Shown one piece after another: positions 6,282 to 64,000 of a stretch of DNA of 64,000 nt (within the stretch, counting starts at the first letter, position 1; every line of letters starts with the position of its first letter). A program made the position numbers and the translations under genes. Source of the DNA: Rhynchopus sp. YZ270_cl-10 (lineage: Eukaryota); NCBI GenBank assembly GCA_964035575.1, contig OZ037837.1, positions 1,240,001 to 1,304,000 of the forward strand. Direction: 5' to 3'. The notes under the pieces were generated by a model that was not told the origin of the DNA, searched no databases, and saw nothing but the letters and a program-made list of their open reading frames with translations.

Positions 6282-6347
6282 CGGGTAAAAATGCACGGTG
6301 GGGGGTTTGAAAACCCTGCAAAAAACACAAAATAAGAGCACAAAGCA

Positions 6348-9789: not shown

Positions 9790-9922
9790 CACAGTATACA
9801 CAGTATACACAGTATACACAGTATACACAGTATACACAGTATACACAGTATACACAGTATACACAGTATACACAGTATACACAGTATACACAGTATACAC
9901 AGTATACACAGTATACACAGTG
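9790..9922 (-). repeat. 9-bp satellite (CACAGTATA)n, reverse complement of the 6348-7129 array, about 14 copies
   Basis: Direct reading. Confidence 0.97.
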
Positions 9923-12393: not shown

Positions 12394-12563
12394 CCCAGTA
12401 CCCAGTACCCAGTACCCAGTACCCAGTACCCAGTACCCAGTACCCAGTACCCAGTACCCAGTACCCAGTACCCAGTACCCAGTACCCAGTACCCAGTACC
12501 CAGTACCCAGTACCCAGTACCCAGTACCCAGTACCCAGTACCCAGTACCCAGTACCCAGTACC

Positions 12564-17427: not shown

Positions 17428-20400
17428 ATGTTCGGCCCACATGAGCAGGTGCAAGCATACGCAAAGCAGCACAGCATCCTGAAGCTGGTCGACGAGCTTG
17501 TGAACGAGCTGCTTCAGCATAAGCCGTGCGACCCGTTGGCGCACCTGGCGTGCTACATCGACGGCCTGCGTGGGGCAGCGCCTGCGACGGACGTGGAGAA
17601 GAACAAGCTTGCGGCAGAAGGCAGCACTGCGGCGTGCGCAGAGGTGTCGCACACCTCGAGCACATCATCATCGCTCGAAGCGGCGCTGGGGACACTCTGG
17701 GACGCGTGCAGACCCAACCACGCGACGTTCAAGGAGCGTTTCGAGAAGGACGTTTCGCAGGGCCTTCGAGATGTGCTTGCGACAGTCTTCGCGAAGGCCG
17801 GGAAGGCGAAGGGGCAGGCCGGGAAGGGACAGGAGGCAAAGGACACACCTGTGCAGACACAACTGAAGTTCGACGCCTCAGCAGACGTGACGCAAGCAAA
17901 TGCGGGACAAAGTGTGCAGCTGGTGGACCCCTACAGCGCCGAGTACAGACCCACGCAGAGTGTGTCGGAGGTGGTCGACGGGCTTGCAGACTGGTTCGGA
18001 CCTGGACGGAAGCTGTGGCCGCGGAGTGCTGTGGACAGGGTGAAGCACAACTGCACCTTCATGCAGCACAAGCACAACTACGGGGAGGTGGCGGAGGTGG
18101 TGGTGCCGCTCTTCATCTACTCGATTGCGGTCATGAAGGAGTACACGTGGGCCTTCTGGGTGGCCTCGGATGGGCGCGGACGGTGGACGCCGTTCTCGTC
18201 GGTGCACGCAGTTGTGCTGGAGAAGGACTTCCTTGCGCACTGCACGAAGGACGGGGCACCCCTGTGTGGGGAGGACGAAGACCTGACACGTCCACGGGGG
18301 CTGCCGCTCGCACCACTGAACGGCACCATCACAGAGGCAAGGCGTGCGCTTGCAAGGGTTGCGGAGGACACGAAGGGTGCGGGCACCACCCCCAGCAGGC
18401 AGCCGGCTCGTGCCGCCTTCGAGCTGCCCACGCAGATGCAGGTGGTGTTCTGCGACGGGCGCATGGTGGGCGGCAGCAGCAGCGAGGGGGACGAACGGGG
18501 GCGTGGCTTTGCAGGGAAGGTTGGTGGGGTGTTTGCGGGCTGGGAGGGGCTCACGGTCTTTGTGAGCACGCCCTTCCTTGAGGGTTGCAAATGTCGTGAT
18601 GAGGTCACCAGCACCACCACCACGAACACGACCAAGGACGTGGCAAAGGAGTTCTACATAGCACGGTACAAACTGGCAGATGTGAGGGCAGAGTACGAGG
18701 CTGCTTTGCGTGCAAACACGCAAAGCACGGCGGATGCGGAGACACTCGCGAGCCTGAAGAAACGTGTTGCGCTGCACCCGTACTCGGACTCGGTTGCGTG
18801 GCTTCCGGCCCCGTCCTGCATCTTTGAAGGCCTCCACACTGCGACGGCGGACGTGCAGCGCACACAGACGATGTCTGTGTCTCTCGCACGACTGCCCCCA
18901 CCCGGTGTGCTGGAGTACTTGCAAAGCAGACGCACCTGTGAGCACCTTGAGATTGCCGAGGGTGGTCTGCACTATCTGCGTTCGGAGGATGCGTTTGCGT
19001 GCCGTGCGCGTGAGGAGAAGGTGCTGCTTGCGGGGAGGAAGGACAAGGTGGCGGGGACAGAGACAGCGTACGTCCGCTGTGACGACAGCTGCTGCTTCTT
19101 CTGTGCGGTGGGTGCGCTGAAGGACCGTTGCGTGCGCGAGAAGAACCAGCAGCAGTACGACAAAGGCTGCAAGGAAGACCTCGACGCACTGAGTACCGAG
19201 CACAAACAAGACTACAGCCCGTTCCAAGCGCTCGTGGCACACAAGGTCGCCATCGCCGTGCGTGAGGCCCCCGAAGGCCAGGCACCGACGCCGCTGACGA
19301 TCCTCCACGCTCTCGACATCCAGGCCGTGTACTGGTCCTCGGCAGGCGTGGCAGACTGGACACACGTCAAACAACCCCTGCACGCTTCGCTGTCTGGGAA
19401 GAACAAGTTCATTGCCGTACCTGGAGCAGACGTGCCACCGTGTGTGCTGTACAAATCCTGCTGCGAGTTCGCGAAGCAGCCGTACTACGTCTTGAACGCG
19501 TCGATGCGTGATGCGCAGAACAAGGCACACAAGACGCAGATCACAGTGACGCGCAAGGACAAGACGAGCGAGGTCTTCTGTGCACGCAGCGTCGCGTCGC
19601 TTGGGAAGGGTATGGGCACGCTCCGGGAGGTGGCACGCAAGCACGCGACCCTGAGGACCTGCCTCAGAGACCTGATGAAGCTGTCGCACCAGACGTGCTT
19701 CGAATCCGAGACGAGCGGGACGTCGGTCTGGTACACGTCACGCGACATCATCGAGGATAAGAAGAAGGACGACACCCTGCCGCGAAGCGACGAGGACTAC
19801 CTGAACCCTGTGCACCACAGCGGGCTTGGCTACTACCGGTACACGGCACGGTACGACAAGGAGGCACCGGAGTACATAGAACCAAGCACGATGAAGGTGC
19901 AAATGGGGGACTGGGTGTCGGGGCAGGTGCGGCCGCTGCTGTTCTACGTGAACGAGGCAATGAAGGAGATGTCGCCTGTGCTGTCGTACCGGGGGTGGCG
20001 GTGTGCGCCGGAGACAGAGCAGAAGTGCTACCGCGGGCTTGGGAACGCACGCCTGCCCCCTGAGCTCTACGCAACGGGGAACGTGGTGGTGTGGTCTGCG
20101 TTCTCGTCGACGTCGACGGACCAGGGCATCTCGCAGTTCTACGCCAGCTCCGCGAGCGGGATGACGGCGTCGGTCTTCATTGTGACAGGGTCGTCTTGCA
20201 GGCTGATCGCACCCTGGAGCAGGTTCGGCCGTGAAGAGGAGTGGCTGTTCCCACTGAACTCAATGTTCAAGGTGGACTCGATGCTGACGGAGGACCAGCA
20301 GTCGATTCTCGGGAAGAAAGACTTCCAGCTCTTCGAGATCTCTGAGGTCGACGAGCTGTCGATGGAGAAGATCCGCATCCGCTGCTCCCTGGCAAGCGCA

Positions 20401-23400
20401 CAGACGAAGGAGGTCGCGCGTGTGGTCTTCTCAGCAGTGTCTGCAGTGGACTCTGGGAACGGTGTTCTCGACCTTTCCCTGAAGAGCGCAAGCGAAGGCT
20501 GTGTGGATGCGAAGTGGGTGTACACAGTTGTAGTGAACTTCGACGCACTCCAGCTGTCGCCTGTGATGACAAGCAACAGCACGAAGCTTTGCACTGGCAA
20601 CGTGGCCGACAGCTGGAACAGTTTCCTGTCCGATGCCCACAAGCTGAATCGCTTCACCCACGAGCACCCCTGTGTGATCTTTGACAAGTCCTCGGAGGAG
20701 GGGCGGCAGGTGCTCAACGCAGTGTCTTTGGTTCTCGGCCTGCGCCACTCGAAAGCGCTCACGTTTGTTGAGGTGACGTGCCACCTGAAGCCCTCGAAGG
20801 CGAAGGACGCCCGCAGCCTGCAGGAGGAAGAGAACGCAAGCTCGGGCTACTACCAGCTGAAGGCGATGAACCCGACGGAGCAGTGGGAGGTGAGCATCGA
20901 GATGCGGCGTGAGGATGGCCAGGAAGGGCTTGCTTTTCTCGATGCAGGTGCTGTGCTGCTGCACAAGATCATCGCGAAGCAGGTGCACCTGGTGAGGGTT
21001 GACATCCGCAACAACGGTGTCGGTGTCGAGGGTGCGGAGCTCCTTCTGCAGGCGCTGCGTGTCAACAGGCATGTTGTGCAGCTCAGCATCTGCGACACTG
21101 AGCAGCAAAACCAAAACCAAAAGCAAAAGCAAAGACCTCTGCAGGTGCGTGACACACACACATGCGACGCAGAGGACGGGGACGATCCACACCTGGGGGA
21201 GGTTGCGGCACAGCGCATGATGCACATCCAGCAGGTCATCAACATCAGGTGTGCGCACAACAGAGGCACCCTTGTGTCAAGCACGTTCTCCGACCTGGGT
21301 GACACCTGGCCGCAGTGCGCCACGGAAGCGCTGTACGACGTGGACGTGGTGGATATGGCCTTCTCGGACCTGTTCGACACCCGCCAGCGTGAGGCTGTTC
21401 TCTTCATCGAACTCCTGCAGAAGGCGGTTGACGCACAGCACCACTCAGCACAACAGGAACTTGCTTCGAACAGGACGTACCCAAAGCTCCCCGGCGCGCT
21501 TGTTGCTGCTGCGCGTTGGTGCGACGCGTCGGTGATGACGTTGCTTCTGGACATGCAATGCGACGCCTGCGAGACGGACGCGTTTGGCGAAACACCACAA
21601 CTGAAGATGTCGCGCCGTCAAAACAGAGGCACAGAGAACTATCTTGATGCCTGTGATCGCTCGCAAGACCTGGCGCAGCGCCTTCACGTGTGTCTGGACA
21701 GGCTCCAGCCTGCAGTGCTCCGGTACGACGAGCCGCTGTGGAAGGTGAAGAACTTTGCGCTGGAGGTGATGCGGATGGCAGACGACCGTGAACACATCTC
21801 TCTCGCAGCTGAGCTGATCCGCAACGTGCGTGCCCGCTACGAAGCCTTCTTTGGGAACGAGCCTGCTGCGCTGTGCGCATCTGAGTACGCCGTGCACGTG
21901 GAGCGCATGATGCACGACATCATGGAAGTGTGCAAGACGTGCTCCGTCCTGGCTGTGCTGCAGTGCCCTCTCCGCCGTCAGGAAGCAAGCCTCTTCTGTC
22001 TCAAGGTGCTTTGCTCGCGTGGGAACGAGCTCTTTCCCCTTGTGGATGCAACAGACGAGATGCGTGCAATGACCGATATGCGCAGCACAGGGCGCAGGAA
22101 GTGTCAAGGTGCCGCTGGGTACCAGAGTTGCGCAAAATTGTGCAATCCGAGAAATCAGTTCAGACAGGAGCAGTGGTCTGCTCTTGCTGAGGAGGAGGAG
22201 CTTCCACGCAGAATGGACAAGAACGGAATCCGCTACTTCGAGCACGAAGTTGCTTTGCAGGACACGGAACCATGGTCAGATATGCAAGAGGCAGACGTGT
22301 GCAGCACGAAGCGCAGAATGTACGAAGGCAGCTACGTTACAAAGCAGCAGTATCTGGACACGGTGTGGAGCACAGCCGAGGAGGAGCCGAAGCAGATACG
22401 CAGGCAGAACGCTGACGGCTACTTTGTCTTCAAACACGACTGGGATGAAGCCGTGGAGGGCGGTGCGTGGGAGGACGGGAAGAAGGAGACACTGCCGACG
22501 CTTGTGGAGCAGTTGCGGCAGCCCTCTCTCAACCTGTACGACCCAACGGTGTTTGGGAGCCGCATTGAAACGGAGGAGAGCAGGGCCCAGCTGCACACGT
22601 GGTCGAGGCTGTGGGGTGCTGTGAACGCTGTGCTGGTGACAAGCACGGAGAAGGAGCGGGTGCTCTTCCGCAAGGTGGAGAATGTGGCGGACACTGTGCT
22701 GATCCACCACCTCCACCTGAAGCGTGGTGAGCTGTACTGCCAGCCCGACATCACTCTCTGGGATGTGGAGCGCCGCTACAGAAACCGTGCTGTGAAGCAC
22801 GAGAAGGACAGCAGAAGCGAGACACAGGAAGCAAGGACGAAGGTGGACTTCACGTCTGACTTCAACGACAACTCAGGAAGACTCTGGAAGGCGTCAGAGC
22901 GCAGATGGACAGGGAGGGGTGGCGAGGAGGCTGCGTATGAAGGCGAGCTTTGCTACGAACATGAGTTCAAAGACAAATGCATGCAGGCACACAAGCAGGC
23001 ACGCAAGGAGAGAGGGGAGGACGTGGGGTTTGATCTGAACACGTTACTCAGATGGGAAGATGCGAAGCCTGAGGACCCTTTCCTGACACACGTCCCTGGC
23101 GAGCAAGTTGAGGTGGAGACACGCAAGAAGAGCAGCAGCACCATGACAACGATTCTCTTCAGCGCGCACGGGAAGATGCACGGCGAGTGTGTGGGGCTGC
23201 TGAGCGACGGACACGACTTCCTCCTCCCTGCGCTTGAGATGTTTGTTGTGGAGGATGTTCAGGCACGTGGCACGTGCCTCCATGTCAGCCTCATCTCACG
23301 TGGCTCGCTGCTGCGCACGGACAAAGAGCTCCGTGCCTGGTGCTCTGGCATACAGCGGACTGGCCTGTCTTCTGTTTGGGGCAAGAACGGTGCTGCGGAT

Positions 23401-25645
23401 GAGTGTTTGCGTCCTGAGAACAAGACAGCAAAGGACGATACATTGGACAGGCAGAGCTTCGTGCGCACAGACGAGTGTGACGTGTTCTTCAGCCGTGAGT
23501 CTCAGATGCTCCACGGAACGGAACGGGAGGCAATGTTGCACGATCTGATGGACACTGTCAGACCTGTGAATGACAGCGCATCTTTCAAGATGCAGGGTGC
23601 AAAGGGACAGGTGAGGAACCATGGTGCGTGCACCCTGCCGGAGGCTGTGCCCAGTACGTACCGCCCAGGGAAGACGTTTTTGAGTGGGTTGAACCGCAAG
23701 AAGCGTCCTGAAGGGGATCACACTGCAGAAGGCATGCCAAGACCACACGGTGACGAACTCCCAAACATCCCGCACGTGGAACTCGCGGAGGATTGGGAGA
23801 AGGATATAGATGTGAACGATGTGGTCACTGTTTCGGGAGCATCCATCCAGGCCTACCACGACGAGCACACAGACGAAGACGCGTTCTTCAAGACGATAGT
23901 CAAGCATGCGCGTGACACACCTGAGGAGTGCCCCCCGCCTGTGAGCGATGTGTACGGAAGGAAGGAGTTCCGCATCACTGTCGGGGAGGTGCAGCAGCTG
24001 CTGAAGACAACCACGATAGTCACGTCGCCGTCCCTCCCACTGCGTTTTGTGCAGTGTCTGATCGGCTCGTTCACGTCTGCGAAACAGCGTCTGCTGTTCT
24101 TCAGAGTATTCCGTGCAACGTCGTTGCTCAGCATCGGCAATAAAAAAGATTGGGAACGTGCGAAACGGATTATCAGAGATGCTGTGCAAAGTTTTGTTGC
24201 AAGGGACGAACAAGGCCTAGACTCTGCACGTCGTGACCTGGATGCACGTGGCGATACGAGAAGCTACTACATCCATCTGCTTCTCCTCAGCCTTACTAGA
24301 CAACAACTTGAGTATCTGGACGGCAACCTTGATGACGACGGTGCAGAGCCTATTGAAGTCACCCGTGACAAGTTCACATCGTGGATGGCCACCGTACAGG
24401 CGGAACCTGCACACTACGGCTTCACCTCAAAGGAACATGCGAGACAGACGTTGGCGAAGTCGCTGGTCGAACTGAGCACAGAAATGTGCGTCTCGCAGCA
24501 GGGCTTCTCCTTCACCTCCGGCACGGACGGTGAGCACAGCCAGCTCTGTGAGAAGACGCACCACAGCATCGCCATCCTTGTGGCCACTGGGATGAACTTC
24601 TGTGACCGAAGACCCACCCTGCGTGAGGCACCAAAGTACTTCGTGAGAACAGCACGTGAAGGAACAAAGGCACACGAGGGCTGGACCTACTTCCAAGAAG
24701 GGAAGGAACGTGAATTTGTGGACCGTCTGAAGGTGCTGTACACATGCATCTTCGAATCTGCAAGGAAACAGCGTGTGCGGAACATGTGTGCCATCCCTGT
24801 GTATCTTGCTACTTATTCTGCTCGCCTTGGGTTTGAGCTGAAACTTGAAGTTGCAGAAATGTACTTGCGTGCGCAGTTCGAACTCCTTGCAGAACAGGAT
24901 TGGGGTTTTGAAAACGTATGCATGCTCTTTGTCTTGCTTTGTCTCACTTCTTGCTCTTTCATGTATGCGATACTGTCCTCCCCTCCTGCAACTAAGAAGG
25001 AGGACAGTCAAGCTGTCTGAATGGCGGCCACACTAAAGCAACAGATTATCAAGAACAAGAAAACAACAGCAGCAGAAAACCAAAACCCCATCTTTGTTTC
25101 AAAGACTTTATTGTGTTCCTCTTTCACATTACCTTTAAATCACTGCACAACAGTACTGGTTGAGGGCTCAGGATGACACCGATATGGCACGCCGCATCTT
25201 GAAGAAAGGACTGCACGAGTGTGGCGACTACAACAACGAGGCACAGGGGTTGTATTTGAGGTGCAACATCGTTTTGCACAAGAAAGACGCGAAGTTTCTT
25301 GCAGTACGCCTCGCGCAGCTGAAGAAATCACCTTCGCTTTTGTCCCCATCTGAATCGCCGGCACTGCTGCAGGGACAGCACGGCATGTTTTGGGAGGAAG
25401 CGAGGGATACCTGGTACACGGACGGAGCAGACTGGGCGGCCACATCGACAGGTGCGCTGATGAACTACAACATTTCGAAGAAGGCACTTAACCTCGACTT
25501 TTCTGCATTGAACAGCACCAGCTCCGTTGCCGATGAAGGTGATGAAGACTTCGCTGCAGTTGGAAGACGGATGAATCGGCCGTTGCGGGCTTCGCGTTGC
25601 AGTGGAGGAGACGATAGCGCAGCTGCACTGAACGGACGTGGCTAG
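17428..25645 (+). CDS. Giant multidomain protein: RIIa/Dpy-30-like docking helix, R-S-E ADP-ribosyltransferase, RI-type LRR, ankyrin-like segment, degenerate second ART-like region, macrodomain-like C-terminus; predicted intron 24916-25153
   Basis: 7.5-kb open frame from ATG 17428 (YAKQHSILKLVDELVNELLQHKPCDPLAHL); ART motifs CYRG (~20026), FSSTS (~20101), REEEWLF (~20230); IRNNGVGVEGAELLLQAL; GTATGC..ACAG phase-0 intron joins in frame to ORF 25154-25645. Confidence 0.82.
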
Positions 25646-33558: not shown

Positions 33559-34188
33559 CCACTCTTGCACTAGGTCTGCCTGAGTGAGCATCTGGTTTAG
33601 ATCACTGGATGACTACTGCTACTGCTACTGCTACAATAACCACTCTTGCACTAGGTCTGCCTGAGTGAGCCTGGTTTAGATCACCGGATGACTACTGCTA
33701 CTGCTACTGCTACAATAACCACTCTTGCACTAGGTCTGCCTGAGTGAGCCTGGTTTAGATCACCGGATGACTACTGCTACTGCTACTGCTACAATAACCA
33801 CTCTTGCACTAGGTCTGCCTGAGTGAGCCTGGTTTAGATCACCGGATGACTACTGCTACTGCTACTGCTACTGCTACTACTAACCACTCTTGCACGAGGT
33901 CTGCCTGAGTGAGCCTGGTTTAGATCACCGGATGACTACTGCTACTGCTACTGCTACTGCTACAATAACCACTCTTGCACAAGGTCTGCCTGAGTGAGCC
34001 TGGTTTAGATCACCGGATGACTACTGCTACTACTTCTGCTACTACTTCTTCTACTACTTCTGCTACTACTTCTGCTACTGCTAGAATACTGCTATTGCTA
34101 CATCTAACTCCTCTGCACTAGGTCTACCTGGTTGAGTGCGACTTGTGATTGCTAAACCGTTCACGACACGTGATCTGCCTGGATGAGA
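33559..34188 (+). repeat. ~80-bp tandem repeat (about 6-7 visible copies) in the 5' region of the retrotransposon
   Basis: Unit CCACTCTTGCACTAGGTCTGCCTGAGTGAGCCTGGTTTAGATCACCGGATGA(CTACTG)nCTACAATAA starting at 33559, 33640, 33719, 33798, 33884, 33969. Confidence 0.93.
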
Positions 34189-34388
34189 NNNNNNNNNNNN
34201 NNNNNNNNNNNNNNNNNNNNNNNNNNNNNNNNNNNNNNNNNNNNNNNNNNNNNNNNNNNNNNNNNNNNNNNNNNNNNNNNNNNNNNNNNNNNNNNNNNNN
34301 NNNNNNNNNNNNNNNNNNNNNNNNNNNNNNNNNNNNNNNNNNNNNNNNNNNNNNNNNNNNNNNNNNNNNNNNNNNNNNNNNNNNNNNN
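34189..34388. other. Assembly gap, 200 N
   Basis: N run. Confidence 1.
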
Positions 34389-34395
34389 TCACACC

Positions 34396-35853
34396 ATGGA
34401 TACCCTGCGTCTGGTGATGAGTGAGATGGACGTCCTGCGCCAGTGCGCTGTCGACAAGACGCCTCCTCCACCTTCCTTCTCCACTGCTGTCTCCGCGCAG
34501 CTCAACGACGCCTACGACTTGGTTGTCAGGTCCGAGCACGCGCCTGACGACTCCCACGTGCGCTCCGTGGCCGCTTGTGTGGTGTGCGAGATAGTCGCTG
34601 CCAGGCCTGCGTCATCCCCCGCGCCCTCCATCGCTGCCATCCTGCGCATCACTGCTGTTGTGACTAAGTACAACCTGGTGCACCTCGCAGAGCTTCCGGC
34701 GGTCCTTCCTACCCCCGCTTCGTTGTCGACGGACGGCTTGCAGGACGGTGACATTGGCCTTGTCCTCGCGACCCTGGCTGCCATTGCCAAGACTGCCGCT
34801 GCCGCCCCTGCCACCACTACTAATGCTTCGTCCTCCTCCCGCGCCCCGCGGAAGACGATCAACATCGTCCAGCGACTGCGTGAACTGGGGTTGGAGAACC
34901 TGCCGGAGCTTCTTCTCCCCAGCCAGGACCTCGTGCGGGCCATCCAGCTCAAGCGCGAGGACGGGTGCAAGCTCCCCCTGCAGCTGGACCCCAAGGGTAA
35001 GATTTTGTTCCCCCCCAATGCCGCACACTCTGTTTCTTTCGTCCCTTCTTCTCTAGACTTGAACGAGCAAGTGGTAGATGCGGCGGGGCTCGCCTACACG
35101 GTTGAGGGGGTACGTGAGGCCAAGCAAGCACTCCTCCTTCAGACTTCGGCGAAGTTGAAGAATGAAGTCCTCCCCCCTCTGCTACACTCTCTTGTCCGCG
35201 CCAGGCACGCGATAGCCTTAATCGTCTGCGAGGCGGTGGCACCACGCGACTACCTACGTCTCCTCCTCCTAGTCACCTCCATTATGCCTATTGTAGCGAC
35301 ACATGCTATGCTCCAGAACCGGGGGACGCGGGCTTGGGTCTCCACCACCTACGAGTCGTGGATTTTCCAGCGAGTCCACGAGTCTTCGGCGGAGACCACC
35401 GTTTCTGATGCGCTCTCTCTTCTTCAGAAGCTAGACGTAGATAAGATTCGGCATCTCGACTTGTCCGGCTCCGGTATCGTCGAGAGCTCTGCTGGTGAGG
35501 AGTACTCAGGTGGTGGCTACACAGGTGGTGGCAACACAGGTGGTGGCAACACAGGTGGTGGCAACACAGGTAGTGGCAACACAGGTAGTGGCAACACAGG
35601 TAGTGGCAACACAGGTGGTGGGAACTCAGGTGGTGGGAGGTCAGGCCGTGCACGCCGTACCCGACCGGCCCCCTCCTATTCCCCGTACGAGCCGCCGCTC
35701 CAGCATCCTGCCCCGTATGCGCCGCCGGCTTTCGAGGTCATCAGGCCCTCCGACGCGAAGGGGCGGAAGGGGAGCAAAGGGGACAAAGGTGACAAAGGCA
35801 CGCCTAAGACCCAAGGGAGACATGCGAAGGGGAAGGGCAAACGCCAAGAATGA
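34396..35853 (+). CDS. Gag-like ORF1 of the YR retrotransposon
   Basis: First ORF of the element; GGGNT/GSGNT 15-nt repeats and basic KGRKGSKGDKGDKG tail; start could lie in the gap. Confidence 0.7.
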   Translation: MDTLRLVMSEMDVLRQCAVDKTPPPPSFSTAVSAQLNDAYDLVVRSEHAPDDSHVRSVAACVVCEIVAARPASSPAPSIAAILRITAVVTKYNLVHLAELPAVLPTPASLSTDGLQDGDIGLVLATLAAIAKTAAAAPATTTNASSSSRAPRKTINIVQRLRELGLENLPELLLPSQDLVRAIQLKREDGCKLPLQLDPKGKILFPPNAAHSVSFVPSSLDLNEQVVDAAGLAYTVEGVREAKQALLLQTSAKLKNEVLPPLLHSLVRARHAIALIVCEAVAPRDYLRLLLLVTSIMPIVATHAMLQNRGTRAWVSTTYESWIFQRVHESSAETTVSDALSLLQKLDVDKIRHLDLSGSGIVESSAGEEYSGGGYTGGGNTGGGNTGGGNTGSGNTGSGNTGSGNTGGGNSGGGRSGRARRTRPAPSYSPYEPPLQHPAPYAPPAFEVIRPSDAKGRKGSKGDKGDKGTPKTQGRHAKGKGKRQE

Positions 35854-38040
35854 CTGCCCCTCGCATCTCCTCTCCCTACACCCGCTTCCATTTACACGCC
35901 CCTCCCTCCGCCCGATAGCCTCCTGCATAAGGTCTGGCTCCGATCTGACGCACTCCTTCCCGAGCGCACTCCCGATCCCGATCTTGATGAACCCATCGCT
36001 ACTAATATCCCACCCCGCCTCTCACATACTTTCCTGAAGCAAAAAGGGCTCTACGCCACTGTAGAAGCCTCTTCCTTTGAAGACCACCTGAGATGCGTCT
36101 CTTCTCTCGTCATCGACCCGGTGACCCTCCCTGACCTTGATTCCGATTTGGTGGCGTGCTGTGCATCTTACGCATCGCGAACCGCGCCGCAGAACAGGGC
36201 TTTTCGGAAGGACCGGATCAGTTATTGGGAGTCCAGGGGTTCTTCTCTTCGCGCCAATATACCTCTCTTCAATTCCTACTTCGATCCCTCCCATCCCGCC
36301 AAGGACATTGCGATGCGGATAAACGTCCCTCTCGTCGAAGAGCTTCTCCTTGCGATGGGTGCCGCCGCTCCGGGGGTACAGAATGAGTTCGTCAAGCGTC
36401 TGGGCTTCGGCTTCCCTGTTGTTGATGACCTCTCTGAGGTGGGTGTCTTCGACCCTAAGCTCAGCCGCAGTACGAAGAAGGTTGTGATCTCGTCGAAGTC
36501 CCTTCTTGTCACCCATGAGGCTAGCGTACTTCATTCTCTGCGTCGGCGTTGCGTTGAAGATGGTGACCTTCACGAGATTAGCTCACAGCTTTCTGCGGAA
36601 GTCGACAAAGGCTGGCTGGAGGGTCCATACACTCCTGAGTCCCTCCCCGTCGACTCCTTCATCCCCATCCGTCGCTTCATCGTGGCGCAAGGACAGAAGC
36701 GACGTGGGTGCGATAATGCGCGACCGACGAACAAGGGCACACGCATCCACACACCTATTTCCCTGTGCGGAGTGGACAATGCTGTGGCCACGGCGCTGTG
36801 CTTGCAGTCGCATGGTGTCCCCAAGCTTGCTATGGCTGTTCTCGATCAGAGCGATGCCTACAAGTCGCTGATCGTTGACGCCACGCAACGCCGCTACGCT
36901 GTGATTGTCGCGGTGGACCCCGTCTCACTCCAATTGCAGTGTTTTCTGAGCAACGTCCTCTGCTTTGGGACTGAGAGCGCGGTTCTGGACTACAACGTGC
37001 TCTCACGCTTCGTGGTTTGCACCGCTCGCAGACAGTTGGGCATCCCTACATCAGGATATTTCGATGATTTCCTCCTAATGGGCAGCGAGGACGACGCTGA
37101 GTCGATGGCGGACGACTTCCAACACCTCTTCTCGAACGTCATCGGCCTTGTCTTCAGGGACGCCAAAAAGCGTGTAGGTTCGTTGTTGAAGTACCTAGGC
37201 GTCTGTATTGACTTGTCGGCCCCCCCCCTGATTACCTGTCGCATAGCTGATGACCGACAGTGCTCCCTGATTGCGAAGATTGAGTCCATCCTGTCCGCCA
37301 ATTCCCTCTCCTCCACCGATGCTGCAAAACTGCTAGGTCAACTATCGTTTGTCCAGCAGAATATGTGTGGTGCCGTGGGTAGAGCATATCTTCACCCTTT
37401 GTATTCGAGACAGTACTCTAAGTCTCACTTTTTAGTTCTTGGAGCCCGCCTGGAGGGGGCTCTTGTGTGGTGGTTACACGCGCTCAAGCGCTCTACGTTT
37501 TTCAGAATAATTGACCCTCGTTTTATTTCCTCTCCATGTTCACCCCTTTGTGTTTACACGGATGCCTCCTTGGGCTTGTTGGGTGTTTGTATTTTGTACA
37601 AGCAATACCGTTACTATGGCGGCTGCTTGTCAGCCCTGACACATCGAGAGGAGGCGAACATCCAATTATACGAAACGGAGGCCGTACTCTCGGCACAATG
37701 TTTCTGTAACCATTTCTTCTCCTCCCTTTTCCCCTCCCTCGACCTCCCTTACCAGCAAATTCCCCAAGTGTTTTTCGTTGATAATGAGTGTGCTCAAGTG
37801 ACCCTTGTAAAAGGGTACGCTAAACGCATTGTTATTAATGCTATGGTCCGATCCTTCTGGTCTGAGTCGGTCTCATCTGGGGCCTCTCGTGTGTGGCTGG
37901 AGAGGGTTGCTTCTGCAGCTAACATTGCGGATATGCCGTCGCGAAGTCTGGGTCGCATTCAGTGGCTAGAGGAACGTGGCTTCCGTTACCTTAAGAACTT
38001 TGAGAGCGTTTTCGCTTCGAGAGAGTTCCACGAATGGTAA
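35854..38040 (+). CDS. Reverse transcriptase - RNase H (pol), in frame with gag
   Basis: KRRGCDN, LDQSDAY, LCFG, GYFDDF, KYLG; RNase H VYTDAS, LYETE, FVDN, NIADMPSR; frame is open from the gag TGA onward. Confidence 0.93.
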   Translation: MPLASPLPTPASIYTPLPPPDSLLHKVWLRSDALLPERTPDPDLDEPIATNIPPRLSHTFLKQKGLYATVEASSFEDHLRCVSSLVIDPVTLPDLDSDLVACCASYASRTAPQNRAFRKDRISYWESRGSSLRANIPLFNSYFDPSHPAKDIAMRINVPLVEELLLAMGAAAPGVQNEFVKRLGFGFPVVDDLSEVGVFDPKLSRSTKKVVISSKSLLVTHEASVLHSLRRRCVEDGDLHEISSQLSAEVDKGWLEGPYTPESLPVDSFIPIRRFIVAQGQKRRGCDNARPTNKGTRIHTPISLCGVDNAVATALCLQSHGVPKLAMAVLDQSDAYKSLIVDATQRRYAVIVAVDPVSLQLQCFLSNVLCFGTESAVLDYNVLSRFVVCTARRQLGIPTSGYFDDFLLMGSEDDAESMADDFQHLFSNVIGLVFRDAKKRVGSLLKYLGVCIDLSAPPLITCRIADDRQCSLIAKIESILSANSLSSTDAAKLLGQLSFVQQNMCGAVGRAYLHPLYSRQYSKSHFLVLGARLEGALVWWLHALKRSTFFRIIDPRFISSPCSPLCVYTDASLGLLGVCILYKQYRYYGGCLSALTHREEANIQLYETEAVLSAQCFCNHFFSSLFPSLDLPYQQIPQVFFVDNECAQVTLVKGYAKRIVINAMVRSFWSESVSSGASRVWLERVASAANIADMPSRSLGRIQWLEERGFRYLKNFESVFASREFHEW

Positions 38041-58023: not shown

Positions 58024-58278
58024 AAGGGCTTCTCTTCAGCAGTCCAGGGGTGTGCTGTAAACTGCGTTCTGAAAAGTAATCTAGAATTCGAAGAGAGAGA
58101 AAAAAACACACCCACGTAGCAAAAGTGGATCTCCTGCGTGCGGCTGTCGAGAGCCTAGGCAGTACACCCACAGGGGTACCTTCTGTTGCTCTTCTTGCCG
58201 TGGGTATCCTCTCGTCACGCCCACATCCTCGTAACACATCTGCAAAAGGGATAAAAAAAAACTTTTTACACTAGTAAG

Positions 58279-61200
58279 ATGGGGTCCGGAGCGTCGAAGC
58301 CTGAAAAGGATGAGATTGCAAAGGCAATTGCAGGGAAGGAGAGGCCCGTGGACGCAGTGGACAGCGTGGACGGGAGGACAATGCTGCACAGTGCCGTGCT
58401 TGCGGGGGATGTGGAGGCAGTGCGGTTTCTTGTGGTGAATGGTGCAGGGAACGTGTGTGACAGGGACGGGAAGGTGCCGCTGTGGTACGCACTGCAGCAC
58501 AGGGACGCGGATGTGCGGGGGCGACTTGAGGCGGAGCTGGGGGCGCATGCAGCAGAGATCCTTGGTGAGGTGGAGGATGCTGTGCAGGTGTACCTCACTG
58601 ACGGTGTTGCGACAACAACAACAGCAACAGCAGATGTGGACGTGGAACGGAGCAGTGGAGATGCAACGACAGGAGGAAATGCCGTGGACACACACATGAA
58701 GAATGACACGAACACCTCTGCAGACAGACAGTTGGGAGAGGATGACGGGGACACGGAAACACTGCGTCGCACAGACGGGCGGAAGGTGGAGTGGCTGCGG
58801 AAGGAGGACAACAACACCAGCAGCAGCAGCAGCACCGGCAGCAGCAGTGGTGGAAGAGAGCTGCTGTGCTGGCTGCGTGGTCTTCCAAAGGTGGATCCGC
58901 CGTTGGGCTACACAGACGAACACGTGCGGCACATGGAGGGTGGGTTCCGTGTGGTGTGCAAGCGTCTGCTGGAGGACATCAGAAGACGGAGGGAGGCTGC
59001 GGGGACACGTGGTGGGCACGTGGAGGTGGATGACTGGATGGCGGCACGTGACCCGTTTGAGCTGCTGCTGTCGGGATTCCTGTTCACGTCTGACTGTGTG
59101 GAGTATGTGCTGAGCACTGGGGGTGTTGTGTGCGACAAGCAGGGGGCACCAGAGATCACCGTTGGGCCTGACGGGAAGCTGCGGTACATCCGTCTGACGG
59201 AGCGGGCTGTGCTGGACCACCACGGGAGTGCTGCTGAGTCACAGTCGCTTGCACTGTACGCAACGATGAACACTGCGATGCGTGCTGTGGGGTGGCTGCC
59301 TGCGGTGAAGGAGTGGAAGGGGACGGCAGCACCGAACGTGTTTGAGCTGTCACCCGCACCCCCGCAGCTGCACGTGATTGCGACCTTTGCGCCGCTGATC
59401 CGTGGTCTGGACCGGCTGATTGGGAGCCGTCGGAAGCAGTTGCGAACTGTGTTCCGTGGGATCAATGTGAACGTGTCTGCGAAGTACGCGTTGGGGACGC
59501 ACATTGTGTGGAACTGCTTCACGTCGACAACACTGAAGCGGGATGTGGCTCGGAGCTTCATGTACGGGAAGGGGGGCACGTTCTTTGTGGTGGTGGCGAA
59601 GGAGGGTGCTGCAGACGTGAAGTTCTCTTCTGTGTATGCTGGGGAGGACGAGCTGCTGTACACAGCGAACATCGAGTACCGTGTGCAGTGGAAGCTTTCG
59701 CCGACGTTGCTGCGGATGATGGGGCTGCGCTTTGACGTGATTGTGATGCAGGAGGTGTGTTCTGGTGTGGGGGAGACGAGTGCGGCTGAGCAGGTGGGTG
59801 CGCTGCAGGAGGTGATGGGACACACAGTCGCGTTCTTCGAGGACTACCTTGCGCAGTACGTGGAGGGGCGTGTGGGCGACGACACACGTGTGAAGGAGGA
59901 GGAGACACGTCCGCTGATGGAGGAGGTGCGGAGGTGGCTTCGTGCACGTGGAGGTGGAGGTGGGAAGCATATGTCTTCCGTGTTCACACAGGCAGAAGCG
60001 GGTACAGAGTGCAAGCCTGATGTGAATGCTGGAGAAGAGCCACAAGTTGGTGTGCTGTGTGTGATCGGAGAAGGAGGGAGCGGGAAGACGTCTGCTTCGA
60101 TTGCAATTCTGAGCGACCTTGCAACGTCTGCGAGGAAAAACAGCAACAAGGACAGCGACAGCAACAAAGAGGGGGGTGCAAAGCCGTACTTCCCTGTGTT
60201 TGTGGCGCTCCCGACAGTGAAGCAGCACCTGCTTGAGAAGGGAGGGCTGGACAGGTTTGTGCTGGAGTCGTTTGCGCTGCGGGAGGCGGACCGTGCGTAC
60301 CTTGCGGAGACGTACGAGGTGGTGCTGGTGCTGGACTCGCTGGACGAGGTGGGGCTGACGCAGGAGGATGTGGGTGCTGTGGTGGCTGAGGGTGGCCTTC
60401 TGTGCCGGCACCCGTGGGTGGAGGCACACTGCAGCGTTGTTGTGACTGTGCGTGGTGAGTACCTGAAGAGCGTCAATGTTTTCCCGTCTGGTGTATGCGG
60501 AGCTAGTGTGCGTGCTGTGTACATGCAGCCGTTCACAGAGGTGGATGCGAGAACGTACATCGAGCGTGCAAACACAGCCTGGGAGAAGGAACACAAGAAG
60601 GACGGCACATCAGAGGAAGCAGTGCGAGCAGTCTTCGTGCGTGAGGAGGACGTTGAGGGACTTGTGCAGCTGCGGAACCCGTTTGTGCTGCACATGGCGT
60701 GCCACGCACAGTGCAGCGGGAAGGCTTCTGAGGAAGTGATCTACGAGACCTACCTGGAGACGTGGACGAAGAAGGAGATGGCGTCTGGTGCCGGTGCTGA
60801 AGACCTGTCTTTGGAGGATGTGGTGCGTGCAGGGGAGCTTGTTGCATGCAGGATGCTGGAGACAAACGAGTGGCAGGGGACTGTGGGTGTGGCGTCGCAG
60901 ATTCTTGATTCGCAGCACGGTGTGTGTGAGGCTGTGCGGGATGCGTGCTTCCGCTGCCTGCCGTTCCGGATTGAGGACTTTGGGGAGGAGCGGAGTGCGT
61001 TCACATTCCGGCACAAGTCGCTTGGGGAGCACCTTGCAGCACGGCGGCTTGCACGTGATCCAGCAGGGACACTGGGGACACTGGTGCAGCGGAGCTTCAG
61101 CAAGGACTCGCAGCGTGTGCTTGGTTTCTTTGCGGCGCTGGTGTGTGGAGACAGTGGGCTGTACGAACGTGCCTGCACAGAGCTGCTTACGGTTGTGAAG

Positions 61201-63348
61201 GCGACACGTGGAAGTACAGGTGCGGGCGAGGGTGCTGTGACAGCAGGGTCGAATGCAGCAGCACTGCTGGCACGTGCACGCATCCCTGTGAGTGGGGAGG
61301 ATCTGAGCGGGATCCGTGTGTCGAACTGCGACCTGCGCGGGTCTCTGTTTGTGGAGACGGCGCTGACAGGCGCTTCCTTCTCAAACTGCTGGCTGGAGCA
61401 CACTGAGTTCCACACCTGCGACATGGGTGGCACGATGCTGCCTGACTGCTCCCTTGGGGCACCACTTCCCCCATTTCGCCAAACGAGCCAGATAATTAGT
61501 TTGTCACTTACCCCTGACGGGGCTCAAGCAGTTACTGCCGCTTACGACAACACTCTGCGTGTGTGGAGCATGTCGACTGGAAAAGAAGTGATGGTACTGG
61601 AGGGCCACAACGAGGAGGCACGTGTCACAGTGACACCTGACGGAACACGCATAGTTTCCTGCTCCAATGACAAGACCGTGCGTGTGTGGGACATCCACAC
61701 TGGGGAGGCAGTGTTCGTCTTGGAAGGGCACAGCGATTTCGTTGCAGATGTGGCAGTCACCCCGGACAGTTCCAAAATCGTGTCATGCTCGAAGGACAAC
61801 ACCATTCGTGTGTGGGATCTCTCCACCGGGAAGGTAGCGCTGACGATAGAGGCATCTGACATACAGAAAGTTGTCATCACACTCGACGGATGTCGAATTG
61901 TGTCATCCTCAGCGAATGTGCTCCACATATGGGACCTGGCGACGGGGAAGCAGCTCATGCTATTGGAGGGACATACCCGCGCTGTACAGGGCCTGGCAGT
62001 CACTCCGGACGGATGCCACGTGGTCTCATGCTCGTATGATCGTACAGCACGCCTCTGGAGCCTTTCCACTGGGGAGGAGGTGATGGCGTTCGACAGCGAT
62101 TTTGGGTTGCAGTCGGTAACCGTCACACCCGATGGATGCCATGTAGTTGCGGGGTCTGCCAACTACACGATTTGCATCTGGAGCGTGTCAACGGGGAGGG
62201 TGGTGACGGTCTTGGAGGGGCATACCTTCAAGGTGATGGGTGTTGCCGTGACACCAGATGGATGCCACGTGGTGTCTGCCTCTTGCGATAAGTCTGTGCG
62301 CGTGTGGGACATCATGGCTGGGAAGGAGACTCTCGCTCTGCAGAGCCACCTCTTCATCGTGAACAGTATTGCAGTCGTCTCTGATGCATCTCTCCTATCA
62401 TGCTGCCACAATGTGATGTCCACATGGAACCCATCCACGGGCAAGCAGATCCAGCTGTTCGAAGGGCACACCGATACCATATGTGATGTAGCCGTGTTCC
62501 CGGACGGATCTCATGTTGTTTCTGGCTCTGTGGACATGACACTACGTGTGTGGAACAGTGAGACCGGCAAGGAGGTGCCTTTCCGCAATCCCAACGAGAA
62601 GGTGGTCCATGCAGGTCACATACGGTCCGTGGCAGTGTCACCTGACGCGTCTCACGTGGTATCAGGTTCCGCAGACAAGACTGTCCGTGTGTGGAGCCTG
62701 TCGACTGGGAAGGAGGTATCCGTGTTTGATGCAACCTCAAGCGACGTCAATGGAGTCGTAGTGACTCCTGATGGAGTGCATGTGGTTTGCGCCATCGCCA
62801 AAACCGTGTGCATGTGGACACTGCACACTGGTGCGGAGACAATGGTGTTCGAAGGGCATACCGACCGAGTTGTGCGTGTGGCTGTGACCCCCGATGGGTC
62901 TCGTGTTGTTTCATGCGCGTGGGACCAGACCGTGCGTGTGTGGGACGTCGCCAGCGGGAAGGAGGTGCACACCCTATTAGGGCTTTCTTCCGATCCGTTT
63001 GGGGTGGCAGTGACACCCGACGGAGCGCACGTCGTGTCGTCCGCTGCAGACGGCACTGTGCATGTATGGAGCATCACTACTGGCGAGGAGGTGGCTGTGA
63101 TCCATGGGGATTGTGCTGCATTGCGCAGTATTGCTGTGAGCCCCGATGGACGTGAGGTGATGTGTTGTTCCGAAAAATGCGTGCGCGTGTGGAGCATTTG
63201 CAGGGAAGACGGCACGATTGATGGGAAGACGAGGTTGAAGAGAGTGATCGGTGCCCCTGCCACAGTTCCTCGTGCATCAGGCTGTCGCAATGCTGATGCT
63301 GTGGAGCCCGAGCTTGCGAGACGGATTCTTCTGGACAAGAAGGTGTGA
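58279..63348 (+). CDS. NLR-like STAND protein: ankyrin - ADP-ribosyltransferase - NACHT - pentapeptide - WD40 (about 13-14 repeats)
   Basis: MGSGAS start; GRTMLHSAVLAGDVEAVRFLVVNGA; ART VFRG (~59452), FTSTT (~59520), GEDELLY (~59641); Walker A GEGGSGKT (~60067), Walker B LVLDSLDE, RNPFVL, FRHKSLGEHLAA; DLSGIRVSNCDLRGSLF pentapeptides; GH..V..VAVTPDG..VVS.S.D.TVRVW repeats. Confidence 0.95.
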   Translation: MGSGASKPEKDEIAKAIAGKERPVDAVDSVDGRTMLHSAVLAGDVEAVRFLVVNGAGNVCDRDGKVPLWYALQHRDADVRGRLEAELGAHAAEILGEVEDAVQVYLTDGVATTTTATADVDVERSSGDATTGGNAVDTHMKNDTNTSADRQLGEDDGDTETLRRTDGRKVEWLRKEDNNTSSSSSTGSSSGGRELLCWLRGLPKVDPPLGYTDEHVRHMEGGFRVVCKRLLEDIRRRREAAGTRGGHVEVDDWMAARDPFELLLSGFLFTSDCVEYVLSTGGVVCDKQGAPEITVGPDGKLRYIRLTERAVLDHHGSAAESQSLALYATMNTAMRAVGWLPAVKEWKGTAAPNVFELSPAPPQLHVIATFAPLIRGLDRLIGSRRKQLRTVFRGINVNVSAKYALGTHIVWNCFTSTTLKRDVARSFMYGKGGTFFVVVAKEGAADVKFSSVYAGEDELLYTANIEYRVQWKLSPTLLRMMGLRFDVIVMQEVCSGVGETSAAEQVGALQEVMGHTVAFFEDYLAQYVEGRVGDDTRVKEEETRPLMEEVRRWLRARGGGGGKHMSSVFTQAEAGTECKPDVNAGEEPQVGVLCVIGEGGSGKTSASIAILSDLATSARKNSNKDSDSNKEGGAKPYFPVFVALPTVKQHLLEKGGLDRFVLESFALREADRAYLAETYEVVLVLDSLDEVGLTQEDVGAVVAEGGLLCRHPWVEAHCSVVVTVRGEYLKSVNVFPSGVCGASVRAVYMQPFTEVDARTYIERANTAWEKEHKKDGTSEEAVRAVFVREEDVEGLVQLRNPFVLHMACHAQCSGKASEEVIYETYLETWTKKEMASGAGAEDLSLEDVVRAGELVACRMLETNEWQGTVGVASQILDSQHGVCEAVRDACFRCLPFRIEDFGEERSAFTFRHKSLGEHLAARRLARDPAGTLGTLVQRSFSKDSQRVLGFFAALVCGDSGLYERACTELLTVVKATRGSTGAGEGAVTAGSNAAALLARARIPVSGEDLSGIRVSNCDLRGSLFVETALTGASFSNCWLEHTEFHTCDMGGTMLPDCSLGAPLPPFRQTSQIISLSLTPDGAQAVTAAYDNTLRVWSMSTGKEVMVLEGHNEEARVTVTPDGTRIVSCSNDKTVRVWDIHTGEAVFVLEGHSDFVADVAVTPDSSKIVSCSKDNTIRVWDLSTGKVALTIEASDIQKVVITLDGCRIVSSSANVLHIWDLATGKQLMLLEGHTRAVQGLAVTPDGCHVVSCSYDRTARLWSLSTGEEVMAFDSDFGLQSVTVTPDGCHVVAGSANYTICIWSVSTGRVVTVLEGHTFKVMGVAVTPDGCHVVSASCDKSVRVWDIMAGKETLALQSHLFIVNSIAVVSDASLLSCCHNVMSTWNPSTGKQIQLFEGHTDTICDVAVFPDGSHVVSGSVDMTLRVWNSETGKEVPFRNPNEKVVHAGHIRSVAVSPDASHVVSGSADKTVRVWSLSTGKEVSVFDATSSDVNGVVVTPDGVHVVCAIAKTVCMWTLHTGAETMVFEGHTDRVVRVAVTPDGSRVVSCAWDQTVRVWDVASGKEVHTLLGLSSDPFGVAVTPDGAHVVSSAADGTVHVWSITTGEEVAVIHGDCAALRSIAVSPDGREVMCCSEKCVRVWSICREDGTIDGKTRLKRVIGAPATVPRASGCRNADAVEPELARRILLDKKV

Positions 63349-64000
63349 GTGCGCTCTGGGGCGTTCTTCTGCGTTGCCTCTACCAATGCGAATGCAGTCT
63401 GAGTGACGCTGCTAGGTCTTCATCAGCAGGTGAAGCAGTCGCGTAGGGTAAGAGCATCCCCTGGCACATTAAAGTGTGCAAGCCTGTGTAATATTTCCTA
63501 CTTTTTACTTCTTTACCTTTCCAGTTCGGGAGGATCTTGTCTTATTGTTCCGTTTTACAACGGGAGGAAGCGTTCAGCACTTTGCATAGTTACACAGTTA
63601 CAAAGCTTTCAGAAATAAATTTGACTTGAAATACGTTGACCAGGTTGACACCTGGTAAACAAAACAAAAGTTACACAGTTACACCTTCAATTGTATTATT
63701 TTTATGCCTCACTGTGCATATCCGTGTTAACACTTTCATCAGGGTCCACTTTGGGTAAACCACTTGTCCATAAAAATAGTTTTTGTTTCATTCTTGTCCA
63801 AATAAGGCGGATTTCGGGATTTTTGGAGTAACTTTGGCGACTTTTTTTGGACTCCGAACATATTTAGAGTCGTGGAGAGCAAATGGGTTGGGTGGAGTGC
63901 ACAAAAAAGGTGAAAAGAAAGAGCCAAGAGTGCAGCCTTGGACAGGTCCATAGCAACACATTCTTTGCGGATACCACTTTTGTTTTTGATTTTAGTAGCC

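What the first reader, a model, noticed from the sequence alone, without database searches (positions are those of the whole stretch)
58279..63348. NLR-like sensor with an ADP-ribosyltransferase effector and predicted membrane anchor
Seen: an intronless 1689-aa ORF with ankyrin, a complete R-S-E triad (FRG / STT / EDE), NACHT Walker A/B and winged-helix FxHKS motif, pentapeptide repeats and a long WD40 array, starting MGSGAS. Established: NACHT-WD40 STAND proteins such as fungal HET-E type and bacterial NLR-like proteins act as non-self sensors that activate an N-terminal effector; an ExE motif typifies arginine-specific ARTC-type transferases; MGxxxS is the N-myristoylation consensus. Inference: a membrane-tethered protist immune receptor that ADP-ribosylates a target or consumes NAD+ on ligand binding. 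I do not know of a characterised eukaryotic NLR with this architecture.
Basis: partly seen in the sequence, partly recalled or inferred. Interest (0 to 1): 0.9.

Follow-up and report, generated by a model that had tools for sequence, protein, structure and literature searches.

The report
Protist NLR-like receptor with ADP-ribosyltransferase effector
This gene, likely from a diplonemid (a marine protist group), joins an NLR-type switch and a hypervariable WD40 repeat region to an ADP-ribosyltransferase domain with its catalytic residues intact, and belongs to a family of dozens of close copies, so it is likely an immune-type receptor that would tag a target protein with ADP-ribose on sensing non-self, an output we found no report of for any NLR.

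Summary
The ORF is real and its architecture holds: MG-x3-S start, ankyrin, a complete ARTC-type ADP-ribosyltransferase (aa 190-494; R393-S416-E456xE458), a NACHT module, pentapeptide repeats and 14 WD40 repeats. It has 65 close relatives at 62-92% identity, 27 of them listed with one contig length. Among 53 of them the ART is 97% identical and the WD40 array 71%. The variation peaks at the propeller-top positions that are positively selected in fungal HET-E. Ninety distant proteins have the ART directly before the NACHT, with WD40, LRR or TPR sensors; 81 keep R-S-E. Of 19 named ones, 18 are Euglenozoa. A model docks the ART on the NACHT through a conserved helix. Best reading: an NLR-related non-self receptor whose output is arginine ADP-ribosylation. 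Ligand, target, activity and cell death are untested. The membrane anchor is only a conserved myristoylation motif with no second signal. Ten literature searches found no ART-NACHT description. New variant of a known kind; high interest.

The parts
58279..63348 (+). Intronless ORF, 1689 aa (P0001): Ank - ART - NACHT - pentapeptide - 14 WD40
58279..58299 (+). Predicted N-myristoylation motif MGSGASK (aa 1-7); no Cys, net charge of first 25 aa is 0
   Evidence: MG-x3-[ST] in 64 of 66 close rows, counting P0007's own start; related motif before the ankyrin in 7 of 14 distant ankyrin-bearing relatives. The consensus itself is recalled.
58342..58575 (+). Short ankyrin region (aa 22-99)
   Evidence: Pfam Ank_2 35.0 bits over aa 10-78; own profile
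58576..58845 (+). Low-complexity, indel-rich linker (aa 100-189)
   Evidence: gap and entropy profile among paralogs
58846..59760 (+). ARTC-type ADP-ribosyltransferase domain (aa 190-494): R393 (59455), S416 (59524), E456 (59644), E458 (59650)
   Evidence: Pfam ART above cut-off; profile hits ART2.2, Vis, HopU1; model pLDDT 86.8; VIA Z 15.5, rmsd 3.9, 207 aligned to HopU1
59698..59724 (+). Hydrophobic helix (aa 474-482) predicted to dock the ART on the NACHT
   Evidence: in the predicted interface; positions 477, 478, 480, 481 hydrophobic in 80, 71, 77, 79 of 84 distant members
59776..61278 (+). NACHT module (aa 500-1000): Walker A 597-604, Walker B 680-690, sensor-1 R725, P801, winged-helix H912, helical domain 2
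   Evidence: motif conservation; profile hits Avs7, NLRP6, NLRP3, NLRC4; fold hits NLRC4, NOD2, NLRP3
61288..61464 (+). Pentapeptide-repeat beta-helix (aa 1004-1062)
   Evidence: Pfam PF00805 above cut-off; repeating short strands in the model
61477..63198 (+). 14 WD40 repeats (aa 1067-1640), likely two 7-bladed propellers; hypervariable top-face positions
63199..63348 (+). C-terminal tail (aa 1641-1689), 86% identical among paralogs, and stop codon

Best explanation
The gene encodes an ankyrin-ART-NACHT-pentapeptide-WD40 protein of an expanded euglenozoan family, likely an NLR-related non-self receptor whose hypervariable WD40 propellers would bind a foreign or altered protein and whose NACHT switch would then license the fused enzyme to ADP-ribosylate an arginine of a target protein. 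Shown: the domains, intact catalytic and ATPase motifs, the paralog family, a constant core with a sensor variable at its binding face, and the same ART-NACHT cassette with swapped sensors in relatives. Predicted: the ART docks on the NACHT through a conserved helix and touches the Walker A helix and the winged-helix domain next to H912; Gly2 is myristoylated. Inferred from known STAND biology: an ADP-bound closed monomer, ligand-driven nucleotide exchange, opening and oligomerisation, which would reposition and cluster the ART domains at a membrane. Inferred from R-S-ExE: arginine as acceptor. Because the ART is 97% identical across paralogs whose sensors differ, the target is likely one conserved host protein or pathway shared by all copies, with growth arrest or cell death as the probable result. 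Ligand and target are unknown.
For: ART fold and triad; R-S-ExE marks arginine-specific ARTs (PMC3102197, passages). Triad kept in 65 of 66 close rows (P0001 included; P0065 was not aligned by my cut) and R-S-E in 81 of 90, with ExE in 73 of 90, distant ART-NACHT proteins. NACHT: 17 of 25 family members match Pfam NACHT at E up to 0.01, best 1.7e-10; top Foldseek hits are autoinhibited NLRC4 and ADP-bound NOD2. Sensor pattern: mean pairwise identity 0.968 ART, 0.931 NTPase, 0.711 WD40 among 53 of 60 close proteins. The four positions matching those under positive selection in HET-E repeats (d-a loop pair and b-c turn pair, spacing 2/16/2; PMC1805685, passages) rank 1, 2, 3 and 5 of 38, with up to 19 residue types at one site, while the opposite-face turns stay at 0.2-0.7 bits. 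Sensor swapping: LRR in P0102 and P0150, TPR in P0080 and P0171. Docking: score 0.66, best of 3 controls 0.01; the mark was reached by 51 of 78 solved complexes and 2 of 108 mismatched pairs; runs agree in at least 86% of contacts; partner pLDDT at least 68. The two chains are adjacent parts of one protein, which favours a pass.
Against: No activity, ligand, target or phenotype is shown. Pfam NACHT is below cut-off for this protein itself. The catalytic residues are not among the named interface residues, so simple blocking of the active site by the NACHT is not indicated and the switching step is unexplained. The repeats lack HET-E's high internal identity (mean 0.44, max 0.72 at core positions). 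The variability test is at protein level, without dN/dS, and I chose the six-position set after seeing the entropies. No second membrane signal is present, and most distant members lack the motif (7 of 90 start with it). That all close relatives lie in one genome is inferred from source, contig lengths and run X1, not shown.
Confidence: 0.64

Rival explanations
1. Same receptor, but the output is NAD+ depletion or a small ADP-ribose signal, as with TIR and SIR2 effectors of STAND proteins.
For: NAD+-targeting effectors are common on bacterial NACHTs (10.1101/2022.07.19.500537, section 12); the closest profile hit, rat ART2, is an NAD+ hydrolase; 8 of 90 distant members have QxE.
Against: This protein and 73 of 90 distant members have the full R-S-ExE; rat ART2's hydrolase behaviour goes with QxE.
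Confidence: 0.13
2. The ART is a built-in regulator: it modifies the receptor itself or a partner reversibly to prime, amplify or switch off signalling, and the true output lies elsewhere (for example ankyrin-recruited partners).
For: The ART is predicted to pack on the NACHT near the nucleotide site with its catalytic residues outside the named interface; accessory N-terminal modules vary (Ank, SAM, RCC1); two relatives, P0071 and P0076, have lost triad residues yet are full length.
Against: The ART is the only N-terminal domain common to all 90 distant members and sits in the canonical effector position; the ankyrin is short and absent from 76 of 90.
Confidence: 0.12
3. The ART is an integrated decoy or bait for pathogen factors, and catalysis is not needed.
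For: Integrated decoys are known in plant NLRs (recalled); a few members have a degenerate triad (9 of 90 distant).
Against: The ART is the least variable domain (0.968) and keeps its triad across diplonemids, euglenids and kinetoplastids; the variation lies in the WD40 face.
Confidence: 0.04
4. A non-immune role: kin, mating or prey recognition, or a housekeeping scaffold whose copies multiplied neutrally in a transposon-rich genome.
For: HET-E-type receptors act in allorecognition (PMC1805685 abstract); the window is rich in transposon remains; truncated copies exist (P0224, P0225, P0227-P0231, P0234).
Against: Neutral multiplication does not explain site-specific hypervariability against a constant core. 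Allorecognition would use the same mechanism and changes only the ligand.
Confidence: 0.07

Closest known systems
Fungal NWD/HNWD receptors (Podospora HET-E, HET-D, NWD2)
   Same: NACHT plus WD40 sensor, N-terminal effector, multigene family, variation at the same four propeller-top positions.
   Different: Effector is an ART, not HET, HeLo, PNP_UDP or a prion motif ('ribosyl' occurs 0 times in PMC4986451; no whole-word hit for ribosyl or PARP in PMC9815663). Repeats lack high internal identity. A pentapeptide spacer, ankyrin and myristoylation motif are added.
Animal NACHT NLRs (NLRC4, NOD2, NLRP3)
   Same: NACHT fold with NBD, HD1, winged helix and HD2; Walker A/B, sensor-1 Arg and winged-helix His.
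   Different: WD40 instead of LRR; enzymatic effector instead of CARD or PYD; 10-16% identity in the structural alignments.
Bacterial NACHT and Avs antiphage receptors (bNACHT; Avs7, PDB 9n00)
   Same: All-in-one enzyme-STAND-repeat design; Avs7 is the best NTPase profile hit (E 2e-11).
   Different: ART is not in the published bNACHT effector list; five ART terms were absent from 7 supplementary files of PMC13581612; 0 of 27 NACHT-only hits, mostly bacterial where named, carry the ART; PADLOC matched only a HEAT-ARM model in the WD40 part.
Arginine-specific ARTC enzymes (HopU1, Tre1, ExoS, Vis, vertebrate ART2)
   Same: Fold over the whole domain (Z 13-15.5) and R-S-ExE motif.
   Different: Those are secreted, injected or cell-surface enzymes (recalled); this one has no transmembrane stretch, has an extra beta-hairpin region (aa about 270-310) and is fused to a NACHT through a conserved helix.
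TeTIR-STAND proteins (TEP1 type; 10.64898/2026.09.21.753143) and plant TIR-NLRs
   Same: An NAD+-using enzyme as the effector of a eukaryotic STAND receptor (abstract start and one passage seen).
   Different: TIR-like NADase fold, not a transferase; that text mentions ADP-ribosyltransferase only for PARP4.

Membership tests
ARTC (R-S-E) ADP-ribosyltransferases | ART fold with N-terminal helical lobe and split beta-sheet | tested here: met
   HopU1 Z 15.5, rmsd 3.9, 207 aligned; ART2.2 Z 14.8, rmsd 3.2, 191 aligned
ARTC (R-S-E) ADP-ribosyltransferases | R-S-E triad at the homologous positions | tested here: met
   profile alignment to ART2.2 and Vis; invariant R, S, E in alignment A1 of 31
Arginine-specific ARTs | Glu two residues before the catalytic Glu (ExE) | tested here: met
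   E456-D-E458; rule from PMC3102197
Arginine-specific ARTs | Measured transfer of ADP-ribose to arginine | not testable with these tools
   needs an enzyme assay
NACHT clade of STAND NTPases | Walker A, hhhhDxhDE Walker B, sensor-1 Arg, HD1 Pro, winged-helix His | tested here: met
   K603, D686/D689/E690, R725, P801, H912 conserved; the motif definitions are recalled
NACHT clade of STAND NTPases | Pfam NACHT score above cut-off | tested here: inconclusive
   18.5 bits against 26.7 for this protein; relatives P0111 (26.9) and P0170 (28.7) pass; 17 of 25 members match at E up to 0.01
NACHT clade of STAND NTPases | NBD-HD1-WHD-HD2 fold closest to NACHT structures | tested here: met
   NLRC4, NOD2, NLRP3 lead Foldseek; NOD2 Z 14.1, rmsd 6.4, 397 aligned, against Z 9.7, rmsd 12.6, 288 aligned for the best plant resistosome row
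NLR in the strict sense (NBD plus LRR) | C-terminal leucine-rich repeats | tested here: not met
   WD40 here; LRR versions exist in the family (P0102, P0150). Filed as NLR-related.
Fungal HNWD family (HET-E type) | N-terminal HET domain | tested here: not met
   Ank and ART instead; no HET hit on the N-terminal pieces
Fungal HNWD family (HET-E type) | WD repeats with high internal identity and concerted evolution | tested here: not met
   internal identity mean 0.44, max 0.72; DNA repeats 61-71% to a reference copy
Fungal HNWD family (HET-E type) | Hypervariable residues on the propeller top face | tested here: met
   the four equivalent positions rank 1, 2, 3, 5 of 38; protein level only
NLR-related immune receptors (functional) | Ligand-induced oligomerisation and a defence or death response | not testable with these tools
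   needs cells and biochemistry
N-myristoylated proteins | Met-Gly start with Ser/Thr at position 6, conserved in relatives | tested here: met
   the modification and the true start codon are not shown

The most novel reading that the evidence does not exclude
Euglenozoans (diplonemids, euglenids, early-branching kinetoplastids) have an undescribed NLR-type immune system built on a fixed ART-NACHT cassette with swappable WD40, LRR or TPR sensors. In this lineage one myristoylated WD40 version has expanded into a repertoire of dozens of receptors diversified at their binding face. Activation triggers arginine ADP-ribosylation, a chemistry known from bacterial toxins and vertebrate ecto-enzymes, as a new class of NLR effector.
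Probability: 0.55. Interest if true: 0.88.

Novelty: new variant of a known kind. Interest (0 to 1): 0.78.

Why it matters
Known NLR outputs are pores, protease recruitment, amyloid relays, nucleases and NAD+ hydrolysis; a protein-modifying arginine ART would add a new one. It would also give single-celled Euglenozoa a diversified receptor repertoire that has arrived at the same hypervariable WD40 positions as fungal HET-E. How such protists defend against viruses and intracellular bacteria is largely open. The family is directly testable: Diplonema papillatum (KAJ9461234.1, KAJ9455072.1) and Euglena gracilis carry members, and both can be manipulated genetically (recalled). A 2010 review stated that arginine ARTs seemed absent from unicellular eukaryotes; later work notes ARTs in microbial eukaryotes and a Bodo virus but, in the passages seen, not fused to a STAND.

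Tried and rejected
No whole genome is held, so paralog DNA, exact copy number and dN/dS were out of reach. Single-sequence AlphaFold of aa 190-514 failed (pLDDT 33.7) and single-sequence PDB search of the ART piece gave nothing under E 0.2; both were rescued by alignments. The PDB search with alignment A1 was swamped by WD40 hits. No RNA holder was listed for the stretch, which says nothing on expression. Summed contig depth over the core is about a hundred times that over the unique WD40 middle and flanks in X1, but the tool states this is no copy number, so it is not used as one. The 40 best-supported differences fall in 15 synonymous and 17 non-synonymous codons, 22 of 40 at third positions: a biased subset, not used. 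Laying contigs on repeats 1-3 gave 9 variant rows, too few for a selection test. Apparent joints (such as 62033-62680, GT..AG, 23 letters on the short side, other letters between) were rejected as introns; they fit paralogous repeats. A GTDB scan with six peptide patterns of this protein gave 1 weak hit of 68 candidates (L001, E 1e-4, 50 aa): a weak search, no proof of absence in prokaryotes. The ESM Atlas gave no answer. No paralog lies elsewhere in the window (tblastn). Earlier scan findings held nothing by sequence or with all words. A transmembrane anchor was rejected (highest 19-residue hydropathy 1.8, inside a WD40 repeat). One review chapter on ART natural history was not held; it, Leipe 2004, de Souza and Aravind 2012 and the closed supplements of the bNACHT preprint may already note an ART-STAND fusion.

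Full report
Observation. Scanned in pieces, ankyrin, ART and pentapeptide pass their Pfam cut-offs, while NACHT (18.5 against 26.7) and nSTAND1 (22.6 against 27.1) do not. WD40 passes strongly and a profile made from the protein's own repeats finds 14. Contigs of run X1 match 61430-63500 and 58100-58305 without a differing letter.

The enzyme domain. A profile of 16 ART-bearing sequences finds rat ART2.2 (E 1.3e-12), Vis (5e-12) and HopU1 (1.9e-10) first, with R, S and E in register. An AlphaFold2 model of aa 190-1064 from 31 sequences has pLDDT 86.8 and pTM 0.81. Its first 305 residues align over the whole of HopU1 (Z 15.5, rmsd 3.9, 207 residues), ART2.2 (14.8, 3.2, 191) and chain 6drh_B (14.6, 3.3, 183; the name Tre1 is recalled). 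E456-x-E458 is the R-S-ExE signature of arginine-specific ARTs (PMC3102197, passages).

The switch. A profile of 25 ART-NTPase sequences finds 9n00 (SeAvs7), NLRP6, NLRP3 and NLRC4. Foldseek ranks autoinhibited NLRC4 and ADP-bound NOD2 first. Walker A, Walker B, sensor-1 Arg and the winged-helix His are conserved. The domain is therefore filed as NACHT on family and fold evidence, although this protein alone is under the Pfam cut-off.

The family near at hand. Searching aa 190-1065 gave 79 proteins of 7,987 candidates scored; 65 are 62-92% identical, all from ENA contigs. Twenty-seven list a longest contig of 1,539,504 bases, 7 one of 1,020,051, and 5 the same length as the window protein's contig. 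In run X1, which holds this copy exactly, 422 of 647 laid contigs are under 99% alike. Together this points to a clustered expansion in one genome or close strains; it is inferred, since no genome was available. R393, S416, E456 and E458 are each present in 65 of 66 close rows, the exception being a row my script did not align. Truncated copies also occur.

Constant core, variable sensor. I used 53 of 60 close proteins, those with a C-terminal part of 560-720 aa. Mean pairwise identity is 0.968 in the ART, 0.931 in the NTPase, 0.94-0.95 in the ankyrin, helical and pentapeptide parts, and 0.711 in the WD40 array. In HET-E-type receptors four codons are under positive selection: a pair in the d-a loop and a pair in the b-c turn, on the top of the propeller (PMC1805685, passages). 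The four positions with that spacing and placement rank 1, 2, 3 and 5 of 38 here (2.93, 2.76, 2.66, 1.81 bits), with up to 19 residue types at a site; the opposite-face turns stay at 0.2-0.7 bits. A six-position set from recalled HET-E numbering was reached by 0 of 100,000 random sets, but I chose it, so the four-position ranking is the cleaner figure. P0001 is 92-94% identical to its nearest relatives in the core but at best 44-83% per repeat. The repeats do not show HET-E's internal near-identity (mean 0.44). No dN/dS could be computed.

The wider family. HMMER over 1.84 billion representatives gave 272 hits, of which the best 150 were listed. Among the 259 proteins then held, 159 have the ART directly before the NTPase; 90 lie outside the close group. 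Of these, 81 keep R-S-E and 73 keep ExE too. Sensors vary: WD40, LRR (P0102, P0150) or TPR (P0080, P0171); so do N-terminal extras: ankyrin, SAM, RCC1 (27 proteins scanned). I looked up 30 of the 90; 19 carry names. They are Lacrimia (5), Diplonema papillatum (2), D. ambulator (1), Namystynia (2), Artemidia (1), a record labelled Hpha (1; read as Hemistasia from recall), Euglena gracilis (3), Apiculatamorpha (3) and Pigoraptor (1). Lacrimia is a diplonemid and Apiculatamorpha a kinetoplastid; the other placements are recalled. Pigoraptor is the one non-euglenozoan and, from recall, is cultured on kinetoplastid prey. Seventeen of the 19 come from EukProt, most with transcript-type names, so relatives are transcribed. 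In a FastTree of 60 sequences (named ones, the nearest and a one-in-three sample of the rest; 366 columns; midpoint root) the window's clade sits with Lacrimia and Hpha sequences (support 0.98), next to a D. papillatum clade (0.91). The host is likely a diplonemid. None of 27 NACHT-only hits has the ART.

Coupling. Folded as separate chains with NAD and ADP, the ART and the NACHT dock with score 0.66, best of 3 controls 0.01; the mark was reached by 51 of 78 solved complexes and 2 of 108 mismatched pairs; runs agree in at least 86% of contacts and partner pLDDT is at least 68. The chains are neighbours in one protein, which favours a pass; no solved entry covering both domains appeared. The interface uses alternating sheet residues and the helix at 474-482, hydrophobic at four positions in 71-80 of 84 distant members. 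On the other side it uses the first helix after the ART, residues just after Walker A, and R897, T909 and R911 beside H912. The catalytic residues are not among those named. The inference is that opening of the winged-helix domain on activation would move the ART, but how that turns on catalysis is unresolved.

Membrane anchor. MG-x3-[ST] starts 64 of 66 close rows while positions 3-5 vary, and a similar motif precedes the ankyrin in 7 of 14 distant ankyrin-bearing members. There is no cysteine, the first 25 residues have net charge 0 and no transmembrane stretch exists. Myristoylation is likely; stable tethering would need oligomerisation or a partner (recalled two-signal model).

Comparison with what is known. 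It works like HNWD, bNACHT and Avs receptors but is a member of none as defined. ART is absent from the bNACHT effector list (section 12 read; 'ribosyl' 0 in the text), from the fungal surveys as searched (passages), and five ART terms are absent from 7 supplementary files of the 2026 STAND survey. The D. papillatum genome paper has 0 occurrences of NACHT, NLR, WD40 or ribosyltransferase in its main text. Ten library searches (listings seen) and passages of PMC7955679, PMC8195603, PMC12881547, PMC9503650, PMC3417536 and 10.64898/2026.09.21.753143 showed no ART-NACHT protein. Subscription papers and one chapter were not seen.

Verdict. It is a new variant of a known kind: an NLR-related receptor family of Euglenozoa with an ART in the effector position. 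Confidence in the full mechanism 0.64; interest 0.78.

Noticed in passing
window 17296-25020 (+), P0002: A second, unrelated-architecture ART gene, 2574 codons, with an apparent R-S-ExE set and a weak Pfam ART hit (22.0 against 22.3 bits); it aligns with the family's ART but has no NTPase hit.
   Followed up: partly
window 3478-4680 (+): Ubiquitin-like domain fused to BspA-type leucine-rich repeats with a 75-nt repeat unit; a related stretch lies near 5108.
   Followed up: no
window 6229-9921 and 11330-13111: A Tc1-like transposase (8159-9184, minus) between inverted arrays of a 9-nt repeat, and an element with long inverted arms and 14-nt tandem repeats.
   Followed up: no
window 34183-38040 (+): An ORF with a weak pentapeptide hit and a 15-nt repeat, followed by one with a weak reverse-transcriptase hit; possibly a retroelement remnant.
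   Followed up: no
P0071, P0076 (relatives): Full-length relatives that have lost ART catalytic residues while keeping NACHT motifs, WD40 repeats and a Met-Gly start; possible sensor-only members.
   Followed up: partly
P0003, P0065, P0066 (contig length 185,426): Rearranged copies: P0003 repeats the winged-helix to WD40 part three times; P0065 has the WD40 part before the Ank-ART-NACHT part. Tandem-array recombination or assembly error.
   Followed up: partly
P0220 (unnamed JGI contig): A 2466-aa protein with PARP-type domain hits plus NACHT, pentapeptide and near-identical WD40 repeats: a parallel fusion of the other ART class to the same chassis; organism unknown.
   Followed up: partly
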